32,000 nucleotides of DNA. Source: Halomicronema hongdechloris C2206. Lineage in GTDB: Bacteria; Cyanobacteriota; Cyanobacteriia; Phormidesmidales; Phormidesmidaceae. Both the position numbers and the translations under genes were made by a program. Where the stretch lies: NCBI RefSeq assembly GCF_002075285.3, contig NZ_CP021983.2, positions 4,860,001 through 4,892,000 of the forward strand, given 5' to 3'. This document shows, in pieces, positions 22,543 through 24,256 of the stretch; positions within the stretch are counted from its first letter, which is position 1, and each line of letters begins with the position of its first letter. A model generated the notes under the pieces. It was given only the letters and a program-made list of their open reading frames with translations, had not been told where the DNA came from and did not search any database.

Positions 22543-22783
22543 CCTAAAACCCTGCCTGATTCAAGCTCCGTGATTGGAATCTTCGCTGAGTTTATCGAGA
22601 GCTGAGGAAGAAGAGCATTCTGGTGGTGTTCTAAACCTGTAGATTGCTAGGTCAGGGTATTATCCTGCGGGGCAACCCCAAGGACTCATTGCCAATCATC
22701 TACACGCACGGATTCACACCTTATTTTGAGACATACCCCGGTGTTCACGTACCAGAACCTTGGGCCATTATTGAGCGGCATGG
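22543..22783 (+). pseudogene. Relic of a second short-pAgo PIWI domain, part 1 (upstream of the ISL3 insertion)
   Basis: VIGIFAEFIES(stop), then after a frame change GQGIILRGNPKDSLPIIYTHGFTPYFETYPGVHVPEPWAIIERHG. This parallels HGIDTAEFISF ... GVLYTRGSIDFFSTYPGMYVPRPLKF of the intact pAgo at 25750-27213. Confidence 0.75.
22776..22783. repeat. Target-site duplication CGGCATGG, left copy (ISL3)
   Basis: The identical 8-mer at 24068-24075 directly abuts the other IS end. Confidence 0.85.
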
Positions 22784-22799
22784 GGCTCTCCTGGGATAA

Positions 22800-23582
22800 T
22801 TATGCAGCAGCAGGAGAAAAATGCCAGCAGATGAGGCAGCGGAGCCGAAATCGCTCAAAGTTGGTGAACCCGTAACCAGAGCGCTTGATCAACTTTAGGC
22901 GAGTATTGATGCCTTCGACGACACCGCTTGTGGTGCGGTGTTCAAAGTACTGGAGGATTTCGCCAAACCATCGCTTCATCGTTGCCACAGCCTCGGGGTA
23001 GAGGGATTGCGCGGTTCCCATCCAGCCCAGGAAACCCGGCAGGGCTTGAGCCCAAGACTGAGCCTCAAATAGAGTCCTAAAGGCTTCTTTGGTCTGATGC
23101 ATCAAGGCGAGTTTCGGCGAAACAGCTTTGACCTCAACGAGCTTGTCCTGCTGGGTCTTGGTGAGATGGGCTTCTGGCTTGAGGAGGGCATACTTACTGG
23201 ATTTGAGCGCTGCTTTAGCCGCCTCAGGAGTGACGCCCTCGGCTAAAGCCTCGGGTGTCCGCCGGAGGGCGTTACGGGCTTGATTCAATTCCTGATTGAC
23301 CAGACTCATGACATGGAAACGGTCGGCCACAATCTCGGCTTGAGGCATCAGGCGATGCACTAAGCCCCGGTAATTGCCGGAGAGATCCATGCTGACTTCT
23401 TCAATGTTTGAGAGCACTTCGGCACCCCAGGTGTTGAGCACGGCTTCAATCGCCGCATGAGTCCGCGCTGGAGCCATCCCAATCAGCCTGTGAGTATCGA
23501 GGTCACTCAAGACCACAGCAAAGTCCTTGTGACCTTTACGTAGCGCGATTTCGTCGATGCCCAACCGCCGCAATCCACTCAA
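22800..23582 (-). CDS. ISL3 transposase, C-terminal DDE part, in the -1 frame relative to the N-terminal ORF
   Basis: LGIDEIALRKGHKDFAVVLSDL ... ADRFHV ... SGVVEGINTRLKLIKRSGYGF, typical of DDE_Tnp_ISL3. Confidence 0.85.
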   Translation of the reverse strand: MSGLRRLGIDEIALRKGHKDFAVVLSDLDTHRLIGMAPARTHAAIEAVLNTWGAEVLSNIEEVSMDLSGNYRGLVHRLMPQAEIVADRFHVMSLVNQELNQARNALRRTPEALAEGVTPEAAKAALKSSKYALLKPEAHLTKTQQDKLVEVKAVSPKLALMHQTKEAFRTLFEAQSWAQALPGFLGWMGTAQSLYPEAVATMKRWFGEILQYFEHRTTSGVVEGINTRLKLIKRSGYGFTNFERFRLRCLICWHFSPAAA

Positions 23583-24034
23583 GTCAATACAGACTTTTTT
23601 TCGCTGACATACTCCACCATGGACCAGACGATATCTTCGCTCAACCCGTGCTGTCGCGCCACATTAGCCGTATTACTATGAATCACCTCACTCACCACCA
23701 CCTCGGCATACCGGTCCGTGTACACCCGACGCGCGCCGACAAACTCCAGCTCCTCGCTGAAGGGTTTACCGCAGGTCGAACACTTAAACTGGCGGCGATT
23801 CACCCGTAACCAGGTCTTCCGGTAATGGCTGATGGGTAGGTCACGCACCAGGTAGCCATGATTCTGATGGAGGTGGTGGCTCAAAGTCCCGCAGCGAGGA
23901 CAGATTGCTGTGTCCCTGTGCGCTTCTACCTCCAGAATCAAGCCATCCTCGCTCTCCTGGTATGACTCCACATCAATGCCAGACAACCCCAAGAGTTCAC
24001 TCAAGAGAGGTACCATAGCGATACGGTATAGCAT
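23579..24034 (-). CDS. ISL3 transposase, N-terminal part (zinc finger / HTH)
   Basis: CPRCG ... CSTCGKPF zinc-finger pattern. Ends at VSEKKSVLT just after an A7 run. Confidence 0.85.
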   Translation of the reverse strand: MLYRIAMVPLLSELLGLSGIDVESYQESEDGLILEVEAHRDTAICPRCGTLSHHLHQNHGYLVRDLPISHYRKTWLRVNRRQFKCSTCGKPFSEELEFVGARRVYTDRYAEVVVSEVIHSNTANVARQHGLSEDIVWSMVEYVSEKKSVLT

Positions 24035-24067
24035 CTACTACACCAGCATACTCATTCCTGCAGAGCC

Positions 24068-24075
24068 CGGCATGG
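24068..24075. repeat. Target-site duplication CGGCATGG, right copy (ISL3)
   Basis: See the left copy at 22776-22783. Confidence 0.85.
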
Positions 24076-24256
24076 TGACAGCGGTCCGCGCGAACTTGCC
24101 ACTGAGTTACTTGCCCTTACCAAGATGAATGTCAATAATGCGGCTTTCTCAGACGGAGAGCCCATTACTTTGGCTTTTTCGAGGCGTGTGGGAGACATCT
24201 TGAAGGAAGTCGGGCCAGAAATGACCGTTCGCTCTGAATATTCTTTCTATATGTGA
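24076..24256 (+). pseudogene. Relic of a second short-pAgo PIWI domain, part 2 (C-terminus)
   Basis: DSGPRELATELLALTKMNVNNAAFSDGEPITLAFSRRVGDILKEVGPEMTVRSEYSFYM(stop). Compare the intact pAgo: NLAQEILALTKMNWNNTQFDRGEPITIRAARQVGSILKYIGKDEPLEFHYRFYM. Confidence 0.8.

What the first reader, a model, noticed from the sequence alone, without database searches (positions are those of the whole stretch)
22543..24256. Relic of a second, divergent short-pAgo PIWI domain on the opposite strand, split by an IS
No ORF in the track covers this, but the plus strand on both sides of the ISL3 element encodes the last ~125 aa of a PIWI domain. Left of the IS it reads ...IIYTHGFTPYFETYPGVHVPEPWAIIERHG. Right of it, DSGPRELATELLALTKMNVNNAAFSDGEPITLAFSRRVGDILKEVGPEMTVRSEYSFYM(stop). 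This is collinear with, and by eye roughly half identical to, the C-terminus of the intact pAgo at 25750-27213. Deleting 22784-24075 (the IS plus one duplication copy) joins the two halves in frame (cat ggt gac). Further upstream the relic has a stop at 22603 and a frame change. It disappears by ~22543, about 100 nt from the NACHT gene start. The locus therefore once held a different pAgo, which was truncated, hit by an IS and left to decay while a new AT-rich pAgo operon sits 1.5 kb away.
Basis: seen in the sequence. Interest (0 to 1): 0.7.

Follow-up and report, generated by a model that had tools for sequence, protein, structure and literature searches.

The report
Dead Argonaute gene remnant split by IS
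This is the broken tail end of a second Argonaute-type phage/plasmid-defence gene, cut short, internally deleted and split by a jumping gene; it is an ordinary, recently made pseudogene, useful only as a footprint of defence-gene turnover.

Summary
With the ISL3 element and one 8-bp duplication copy removed, the + strand of 22683-22783 plus 24076-24256 reads the last 93 codons and the stop of a short prokaryotic Argonaute. It is 45% identical to the neighbouring pAgo (E 7e-25). It is 100% identical in protein to the C-terminus of an intact 500-aa pAgo in Almyronema epifaneia S1, which sits behind an intact DUF4365 (DREN)-APAZ gene. The relic therefore comes from a second SPARDA-type system. 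About 0.9 kb downstream of it is syntenic with that genome.

- A 105-codon in-frame internal deletion lies at 22680-22682.
- All 12 nucleotide differences from the intact ortholog are synonymous, so the inactivation is recent, not a long decay.
- The ~90 nt upstream (22557-22647) is, by contrast, riddled with indels and stops. It resembles other cyanobacterial copies more than the closest ortholog, which suggests a possible mosaic.
- The parental operon is as AT-rich (41.7% GC) as the "new" one, so GC content says nothing about which is older.
- The "intact" neighbouring SPARDA has, as sequenced, a one-base frameshift in its effector gene.

The window is from Halomicronema hongdechloris. No function is expected. 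Interest is low.

The parts
22557..22647 (+). Scrambled 5' remnant of the pAgo gene, roughly codons 262-291 of the L007 gene. It has about 10 small indels, uses three reading frames, and carries stops TGA 22603-22605 and TAG 22645-22647.
   Evidence: Colinear global alignment to the 105 nt upstream of the LGQG anchor: L009 score 34 against shuffles of 10.8 +/- 3.9 (0/1000); L008 5/1000; L005 4/1000; L007 312/1000. Not significant when searched against the whole gene. Probable homology, not certain.
22648..22679 (+). pAgo codons ~292-302 (LGQGIILRGNP), in the same frame as the 3' part.
   Evidence: blastn to L007 2352-2383: 84%, E 3e-5. tblastn to the Methylobacterium and L007 pAgos at the colinear position.
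22680..22682 (+). Junction of an in-frame internal deletion. AAG replaces 315 nt (L007 2384-2698, codons 303-407).
   Evidence: The two flanking DNA matches to L007 and the sequences printed.
22683..22783 (+). pAgo codons 408-441 (DSLPIIYTHGFTPYFETYPGVHVPEPWAIIERHG), left of the IS.
   Evidence: 97% nt identity and 100% aa identity to L007 2699-2799.
22776..22783 (.). Left copy of the 8-bp target-site duplication, cggcatgg.
   Evidence: The sequence itself. The single copy CGACATGG occurs at the empty site L007 2792-2799.
22784..24067 (-). ISL3-family insertion sequence, 1284 bp. Terminal inverted repeats lie at 22783-22817 and 24034-24068. The transposase is split into ORFs 23579-24034 (zinc ribbon + HTH) and 22800-23582 (DDE) by a one-base loss in the homopolymer at 23595-23601.
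   Evidence: Pfam DDE_Tnp_ISL3 5.5e-63, HTH_Tnp_ISL3 3.5e-11, Zn_ribbon_ISL3 4.3e-10. Inverted repeat I1 of 35 nt, 71% complementary. Adding one base restores a 411-aa ORF. No other copy in the window or the fetched loci.
24068..24075 (.). Right copy of the 8-bp target-site duplication, cggcatgg.
24076..24256 (+). pAgo codons 441-500 plus the stop codon (TGA 24254-24256): DSGPRELATELLALTKMNVNNAAFSDGEPITLAFSRRVGDILKEVGPEMTVRSEYSFYM*.
   Evidence: 100% aa identity to L007. 9 synonymous and 0 non-synonymous differences in this part.
24279..25134 (-). Two overlapping small ORFs (157 and 170 aa) of unknown family. They form the downstream flank shared with the intact operon of A. epifaneia. Synteny ends at about 25179.
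   Evidence: blastn of L007 2792-3902 to window 24068-25179: 85.8%. Protein identities 91% and 86%. Identity falls to background after 25157. No Pfam, PADLOC or NCBIfam hit.
25750..27213 (-). Neighbouring full-length short pAgo (487 aa) of a different SPARDA clade, convergent with the relic. This is context, not part of the relic.
   Evidence: PADLOC pAgo_I 1.3e-177. PDB 9qbp_B, 9qbl_B and 9jsb_A at about 1e-105. 32-33% identical to the relic's parental protein.
27203..28638 (-). DREN (DUF4365)-APAZ effector gene of the neighbouring SPARDA. As sequenced it is split into two ORFs by a one-base loss in the homopolymer at 28349-28355.
   Evidence: PADLOC Aga_REase-PNTD1-PNTD2: ORF 27203-28261 matches profile positions 97-420 (1.3e-107) and ORF 28294-28638 matches 3-71 (4.5e-24). 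Pfam DUF4365. Adding one base gives one 479-codon open frame.
18501..22442 (-). NACHT/STAND NTPase gene, divergent from the relic. It occupies the place where the relic's 5' part and its partner gene would have been.
   Evidence: Pfam NACHT 1.7e-13. 100% identical to a Halomicronema hongdechloris NACHT protein. No remnant of the relic-clade DREN-APAZ anywhere in the window.

Best explanation
The stretch is a non-functional remnant of the short-Argonaute gene of a second SPARDA-type defence operon (DREN/DUF4365-APAZ effector gene followed by a MID-PIWI short pAgo). It belongs to a clade carried by marine Leptolyngbya-like cyanobacteria and some alphaproteobacteria.

Three lesions are shown by the sequence:
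- Everything upstream of about codon 262 is lost, including the whole effector gene. A divergently oriented NACHT gene now abuts the remnant.
- An in-frame 105-codon internal deletion is present.
- An ISL3 element has inserted with an 8-bp target duplication between codons 441 and 442.

Inference: the remnant has no MID domain, no partner, no start codon and an IS in its middle, so it cannot make a working Argonaute. The last 93 codons have accumulated only synonymous differences from the intact ortholog, so the disabling events are recent relative to the split of the two lineages (upper bound roughly 7% of that divergence). The likely background is the known cost of SPARDA, whose collateral nuclease activity leads to cell death or dormancy on activation. 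Such systems are readily lost or replaced in defence islands. Here a NACHT gene and a second, unrelated-clade SPARDA sit on either side.
For: Translation and in-frame join. 45% identity to the neighbouring pAgo, E 7e-25. PADLOC pAgo_I 6.9e-34. PDB short pAgos. 777 family members at E<=0.001, with the listed best hits matched nearly all at their C-terminal ends.

Intact orthologous operons exist in L007 (A. epifaneia S1), L008, L009 (Leptolyngbya sp. PCC 7375) and L011, with no stops. L007's partner protein is DUF4365 (Pfam 2.4e-24) and matches the PDB 'DREN-APAZ' chain 9jsb_D. The 93 aa are 100% identical to L007, and the downstream flank is 86% identical as far as 25179.

The internal deletion is mapped by two colinear DNA matches. 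The IS anatomy and empty site are confirmed. Differences from L007 are 12 synonymous and 0 non-synonymous, pS 0.187, P = 2e-8. No trace of the clade's DREN-APAZ remains in the window. The SPARDA mechanism is taken from PMC12205087 and PMC12774872 and from bioRxiv 10.1101/2023.06.08.544223 (abstracts).
Against: Synteny with the intact operon exists only on the 3' side, because L007's contig starts 172 nt upstream of its operon. It is therefore not shown that the full operon ever stood at this chromosomal position.

The 5' piece (22557-22647) is far more damaged than the pristine 3' part. It also resembles L009, L008 and L005 rather than L007. A single gene decaying uniformly would not show this pattern.

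The link between the deletion and the arrival of the NACHT gene is inferred from adjacency only.
Confidence: 0.85

Rival explanations
1. The relic is a mosaic or an imported fragment. In this reading the L007-like part (22648/22683 to 25179: the pAgo 3' end plus two small ORFs) was not inherited in place. It was recombined in from a plasmid-like element carrying an intact SPARDA, possibly onto an older, already decayed pAgo remnant (22557-22647) that provided homology. The result is still a dead relic, but with a different history.
For: The 3' part is closest to L007 (96% nt) and then L008 and L009. The scrambled 5' piece matches L009, L008 and L005 (0-5 of 1000 shuffles) but not L007 (312/1000). 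The contrast in damage is extreme: about 10 indels in 90 nt against none in 314 nt. In A. epifaneia the operon lies at a contig end next to a ResT/TelK telomere resolvase gene and a DUF3854-helicase gene, which suggests a linear plasmid or phage-plasmid. Homology to L007 stops sharply at 25179.
Against: The 5' piece is short and its homology is only marginally established, so the discordance rests on few sites. No second copy or plasmid sequence of Halomicronema was available. The 32-nt anchor at 22648-22679 is again closest to L007 (27/33).
Confidence: 0.25
2. The C-terminal pAgo fragment is retained under selection as a small protein. It might act as a decoy or dominant-negative regulator of the neighbouring SPARDA, or in some other role.
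For: Zero non-synonymous changes in 93 codons against L007. Other C-terminal-only fragments exist: L003/L004 are 96% identical in protein but only 80% in DNA (pN/pS 0.03), and further fragments are L006, L012 and L013.
Against: Here the fragment is split by a 1.3-kb IS, so no single product is possible. No start codon or promoter stands out. The low pN/pS is fully explained by divergence while the genes were still intact. The apparent excess of C-terminal fragments is an ascertainment effect, because all searches used a C-terminal query. Breakpoints and neighbouring genes differ from case to case. The relic is only 45% identical to the neighbouring pAgo.
Confidence: 0.03
3. The relic is the displaced 3' end of a target gene, left behind when an integrative element carrying a replacement 3' end inserted into a pAgo gene (an att-site type duplication).
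For: Two pAgo 3' ends lie within 1.5 kb of each other. The neighbouring operon has foreign base composition.
Against: The two 3' ends are convergent rather than in the same orientation. They are only 45% identical in protein, with no DNA repeat between them. There is no integrase gene or tRNA nearby. The relic's own ortholog is a complete gene of a different clade.
Confidence: 0.02

Closest known systems
SPARDA systems (short pAgo + DREN-APAZ; e.g. NbaSPARDA, PDB 9jsb; PMC12205087, PMC12774872, bioRxiv 10.1101/2023.06.08.544223)
   Same: The relic's intact ortholog (L007) has the SPARDA operon layout: a DUF4365/DREN-APAZ gene followed by a ~500-aa MID-PIWI short pAgo. The partner matches 9jsb_D 'DREN-APAZ' (3.3e-18) and the pAgo matches 9jsb_A (1.1e-51). 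The relic aligns with the last 90 residues of these pAgos.
   Different: In the window only about 104 recognisable codons of about 500 remain. They are interrupted by an IS and an internal deletion, and the effector gene is gone. The clade is distant from the characterised SPARDA pAgos (about 32% identity to the neighbouring SPARDA pAgo, which is itself the closer relative of the 9qbp, 9qbl and 9jsb chains).
SPARHA short pAgo (PDB 9om4_B, partner 'HNH endonuclease' 9om4_A; PMC12738770)
   Same: This is the best solved-structure match by sequence, both for the relic (7.8e-14) and for its intact ortholog (3.3e-76).
   Different: The ortholog's partner carries a DUF4365 (DREN) nuclease domain, not HNH. 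Only its APAZ part matches 9om4_A.
ISL3-family insertion sequences
   Same: The element has the zinc-ribbon, HTH and DDE_Tnp_ISL3 domains, imperfect terminal inverted repeats starting GGCTCT, and an 8-bp target duplication.
   Different: The transposase reading frame is broken by one base in a homopolymer as sequenced. No second copy was available for comparison.
Pseudogenised SPARDA copies of the same clade in Methylobacterium aquaticum, M. tardum and M. alsaeris (L001, L002, L010), and metagenomic remnants (L003-L006, L012, L013)
   Same: They belong to the same pAgo clade (79-82% aa identity to the relic) and are likewise inactivated.
   Different: The Methylobacterium copies keep both genes at full length, with one or two frameshifts or stops. 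The window copy has lost most of the operon.

Membership tests
Short prokaryotic Argonaute (MID-PIWI) | Significant sequence similarity to the PIWI C-terminal region, colinear with the protein's C-terminus | tested here: met
   BLASTP E 7e-25. PADLOC pAgo_I 6.9e-34 at profile positions 366-455 of 455. PDB chains matched at their last ~90 residues. The Pfam PIWI model itself hits neither the relic nor the full-length neighbour.
Short prokaryotic Argonaute (MID-PIWI) | MID domain and the remainder of PIWI present in one open reading frame | tested here: not met
   Only codons ~292-302 and 408-500 are recognisable. Codons 303-407 are deleted. Upstream there is only a scrambled ~90-nt remnant with stops. 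An IS lies inside. This is a gene remnant, not a member protein.
SPARDA system | DREN (DUF4365)-APAZ effector gene immediately upstream in the same operon | tested here: not met
   Not met in the window: tblastn with the L007 DREN-APAZ finds only the unrelated-clade gene of the neighbouring operon at 22% identity. Met in the intact orthologs L007, L008, L009 and L011.
SPARDA system | Guide-dependent target recognition that triggers collateral nuclease activity | not testable with these tools
   This is biochemistry. For the relic it is excluded in practice by the missing parts.
ISL3 insertion sequence | DDE_Tnp_ISL3 transposase with N-terminal zinc ribbon and HTH | tested here: met
   Pfam 5.5e-63, 4.3e-10 and 3.5e-11.
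ISL3 insertion sequence | Terminal inverted repeats and an 8-bp target-site duplication | tested here: met
   Inverted repeats at 22783-22817 and 24034-24068. cggcatgg appears twice in the window and once at the empty site in L007.
ISL3 insertion sequence | Single uninterrupted transposase ORF (~400-440 aa) | tested here: not met
   Two ORFs of 151 and 260 aa. One added base in the T7 run at 23595-23601 restores a 411-aa ORF. It is undecided whether this is a real mutation or a sequencing error.

The most novel reading that the evidence does not exclude
The relic is a composite. In this reading an old, scrambled pAgo remnant served as a homology anchor through which a fresh 3' segment of a plasmid-borne SPARDA operon (of the Almyronema type, next to a telomere resolvase gene) was recombined into the chromosome. 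The locus would then record serial, recombination-driven turnover of Argonaute defence systems between linear plasmids and chromosomes.
Probability: 0.15. Interest if true: 0.45.

Novelty: new member of a known kind. Interest (0 to 1): 0.22.

Why it matters
The main value is for annotation and evolutionary bookkeeping. The relic shows that this Halomicronema defence island carried, or received part of, a second SPARDA system of a different clade. That system was destroyed very recently by deletion and IS insertion. It now lies next to a NACHT gene and another SPARDA whose effector gene may itself be frameshifted.

Together with the frameshifted Methylobacterium copies and the metagenomic remnants, it adds an example of frequent inactivation of this SPARDA clade. 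That fits the view that abortive-infection systems with collateral nucleases are costly. No new mechanism is implied.

Tried and rejected
- Pfam on the relic and on the full-length neighbouring pAgo gave no PIWI hit. PADLOC, PDB and phmmer searches were needed instead.
- The word-indexed protein search returned only 62-157-aa fragments. This briefly suggested that the C-terminal piece might be a recurrent independent unit. Context look-ups showed these are ORF calls inside frameshifted or degraded full-length genes, or lie on short contigs. The genome scan then found intact full-length genes.
- I looked for a common neighbour or breakpoint among the C-terminal-only remnants (L003, L006, L012, L013). 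There is none: the neighbours are SNF2 helicase, methylase, PEGA/TPR and urocanase genes.
- Exact-sequence look-ups of the window's pAgo, the NACHT protein and the NCBI NACHT protein found no contig on record. No second Halomicronema assembly could be compared.
- No synteny with L007-L009 exists beyond 22648-25179 at either DNA or protein level.
- Rfam, tRNA and promoter/terminator scans found nothing relevant.
- There are no direct repeats bounding the AT-rich segment and no further IS copy.
- Similarity of 22443-22647 to the whole pAgo gene is not above shuffles. Only the colinear test is significant, and not against L007.
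Full report
**Observation**

The + strand left of the IS reads ...DSLPIIYTHGFTPYFETYPGVHVPEPWAIIERHG. Right of it, it reads DSGPRELATELLALTKMNVNNAAFSDGEPITLAFSRRVGDILKEVGPEMTVRSEYSFYM followed by TGA at 24254-24256. Removing 22784-24075 joins the halves in frame.

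The joined peptide was compared with several references:
- It is 45% identical (40/89, E 7e-25) to the last 89 residues of the 487-aa protein encoded at 25750-27213 on the - strand.
- It hits the PADLOC class I pAgo profile at E 6.9e-34, over the last 90 profile positions.
- It matches solved short-pAgo chains at their C-terminal ends (9om4_B 7.8e-14, 9qbp_B, 9jsb_A, 8fex_B).
- An exhaustive phmmer search with a 157-aa relative found 777 proteins at E<=0.001. The best 150 listed are a mix of full-length proteins of about 460-565 aa and shorter fragments, nearly all matched at their C-terminal ends.

This is far beyond chance.

**The insertion sequence**

The IS spans 22784-24067 (1284 bp).
- It has 35-nt imperfect terminal inverted repeats at 22783-22817 and 24034-24068.
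- The 8-bp target duplication cggcatgg lies at 22776-22783 and 24068-24075.
- Its ORFs carry the ISL3 zinc-ribbon, HTH and DDE domains.
- A relative provides the empty site: the two blastn matches to L007 overlap by exactly these 8 bp (L007 2792-2799).
- The transposase frame is broken at a T7 run (23595-23601). One added base restores a 411-aa ORF.

**What gene the relic comes from**

The word-indexed protein search returned only 62-157-aa proteins at 69-96% identity, among them two from complete Methylobacterium genomes. Their contexts show frameshifted SPARDA-like operons, that is, a DUF4365 protein followed by a split pAgo.

A scan of one genome per GTDB species then found intact operons in four genomes. 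These are Almyronema epifaneia S1 (L007), a cyanobacterial MAG (L008), Leptolyngbya sp. PCC 7375 (L009) and an Aurantimonadaceae MAG (L011). Each has a ~430-aa DREN-APAZ gene and a ~500-aa pAgo gene without stops.

L007's partner protein has Pfam DUF4365 (2.4e-24). It matches the PDB chains named 'DREN-APAZ' and 'DUF4365 domain-containing protein' (9jsb_D, 9qbq_A). The relic therefore derives from a SPARDA-type system. [quoted passage not shown]

The neighbouring operon at 25750-28638 (- strand) is also SPARDA-type (PADLOC pAgo_I 1.3e-177; Aga_REase-PNTD1-PNTD2 1.3e-107). It belongs to another clade, only about 32% identical over the full pAgo.

**Orthology and synteny**

The relic's 93 codons are 100% identical in protein to L007's pAgo. 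The DNA downstream of the stop, up to window position 25179, is about 85% identical to L007 2981-3902. This stretch includes two overlapping small - strand ORFs of unknown family, 91% and 86% identical in protein.

No other part of the window matches L007-L009. L007's contig begins 172 nt upstream of its operon, so the 5' side cannot be compared. No trace of the clade's DREN-APAZ remains in the window.

**Anatomy of the remnant**

DNA matches to L007 define two colinear blocks. Window 22648-22679 matches L007 2352-2383 (84%, E 3e-5), and window 22683-22783 matches L007 2699-2799 (97%). So 315 nt (codons 303-407) are missing and AAG stands in their place.

Upstream, 22557-22647 aligns with the gene only through about ten small indels across three frames, with stops at 22603 and 22645. 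This similarity is not above shuffles when the whole gene is the target. It is significant in a colinear test against L009 (0/2000 and 0/351 window controls), L008 (5/1000) and L005 (4/1000), but not against L007 (312/1000). From 22443 to about 22556 nothing is recognisable. The NACHT gene starts at 22442 on the other strand.

**Age of the lesions**

Against L007 the 93 codons show 12 synonymous and 0 non-synonymous differences (pS 0.187, pN 0). Under neutrality the probability of this pattern is 2e-8.

If the remnant had drifted for a fraction f of the divergence, about 40 x f non-synonymous changes would be expected. Zero observed puts f below roughly 0.07. The truncation and the IS insertion are therefore recent. 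'Left to decay' is not what the 3' part shows.

The same low pN/pS holds against L008, L009 and the metagenomic fragment L003. It is what is expected from divergence between genes that were intact.

**Unexplained**

The pristine 3' part and the scrambled 5' piece cannot both result from uniform neutral decay. In addition, the 5' piece resembles L009, L008 and L005 rather than L007. Possible explanations are:
- a mosaic of an older remnant and a recently recombined L007-like segment;
- error-prone repair at the deletion breakpoint;
- noise in a 90-nt comparison.

In A. epifaneia the operon lies next to a ResT/TelK telomere resolvase gene and a DUF3854-helicase gene. This hints at a linear plasmid or phage-plasmid as a possible donor.

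**Rivals rejected**

- An att-type duplication by an integrative element is contradicted by the convergent orientation, the 45% identity, and the absence of an integrase, a tRNA or bounding repeats.
- A selected C-terminal mini-protein is contradicted here by the IS in its middle. The apparent abundance of C-terminal fragments is an ascertainment effect of the C-terminal query. Their breakpoints and neighbours differ from case to case.

**Context**

The NACHT protein is 100% identical to a Halomicronema hongdechloris protein on a 5.58-Mb contig, which identifies the source of the window. GC content is 53% for the window and 41.7% for the neighbouring SPARDA. It is also 41.7% for the relic's parental operon in L007, so base composition does not tell which system is newer.

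The neighbouring SPARDA's effector gene is split by a one-base loss in an A-run (T7 on the + strand, 28349-28355). One added base gives a single 479-codon open frame. The ISL3 transposase carries the same type of lesion, so homopolymer sequencing error is a live possibility.

**Verdict**

The finding is real and its main interpretation is right. What is there is an ordinary, recently created pseudogene remnant of a known kind of defence gene. It has no expected function. Interest is low. The only mildly novel possibility is the mosaic, plasmid-recombination history.

Noticed in passing
window 27203-28638 (- strand); homopolymer at 28349-28355: The DREN(DUF4365)-APAZ effector gene of the neighbouring, supposedly intact SPARDA operon is split into two ORFs by a one-base loss in an A-run. 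Adding one base gives a single 479-codon open frame. This is either a genuine inactivating or phase-variable mutation, or a homopolymer sequencing error.
   Followed up: partly
window 23595-23601 (inside the ISL3 element): The ISL3 transposase has the same kind of lesion: a 7-nt homopolymer where one added base restores a 411-aa ORF. Two identical lesion types within 5 kb suggest long-read homopolymer errors in the assembly.
   Followed up: partly
window 30324-31858 (+ strand): An IS66-family transposase (DUF6444 + zf-IS66, then DDE_Tnp_IS66) is split into two overlapping ORFs, with no homopolymer at the overlap. It bounds the AT-rich SPARDA segment on the right.
   Followed up: no
L007 (Almyronema epifaneia S1, NZ_JBHZOL010000111) 1-10676: The intact orthologous SPARDA operon starts 172 nt from a contig end. 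It is followed by two small ORFs, a ResT/TelK telomere resolvase gene (4273-6306) and a DUF3854-DEAD helicase gene (7347-10676, - strand). This looks like a linear plasmid or phage-plasmid.
   Followed up: partly
L001 (M. aquaticum), L002 (M. tardum), L010 (M. alsaeris): All three Methylobacterium copies of this SPARDA clade are disrupted. The pAgo is frameshifted in all three. The APAZ end is frameshifted into the pAgo frame in M. tardum (giving an 810-aa ORF call). A stop lies in the DREN-APAZ gene of M. alsaeris.
   Followed up: partly
L005 7408-10215; L006 2598-3309; L003/L004 131-370; L012 5816-6031; L013 10001-10096: Further dead copies of the clade exist. L005 is a full-length but heavily frameshifted operon in a transposase-rich 82-kb contig. 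L006 is a deletion-fused DREN/APAZ/pAgo-tail remnant next to a DNA methylase gene. L003/L004, L012 and L013 are C-terminal-only remnants. L003 is 96% identical to the relic in protein but only 80% in DNA.
   Followed up: partly
window 24279-25134 (- strand): Two overlapping small ORFs (157 and 170 aa) are conserved with L007 3003-3816 in the same overlapping arrangement (91% and 86% aa identity). They have no Pfam, PADLOC or NCBIfam match.
   Followed up: partly
window 22557-22647 versus 22683-24256: The damage within one relic is very uneven: about 10 indels and 2 stops in 90 nt, next to 282 nt with no indel and only synonymous differences. The nearest relatives are also discordant: L009, L008 and L005 for the 5' piece, L007 for the 3' part.
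   Followed up: partly
window 18501-22442 (- strand): The 1313-aa NACHT/HEAT STAND NTPase is 100% identical to a Halomicronema hongdechloris protein annotated 40 codons shorter (1273 aa). It has weak similarity to the antiphage NACHT protein EruA and to Avs2. This identifies the source organism and marks the region as a defence island.
   Followed up: partly
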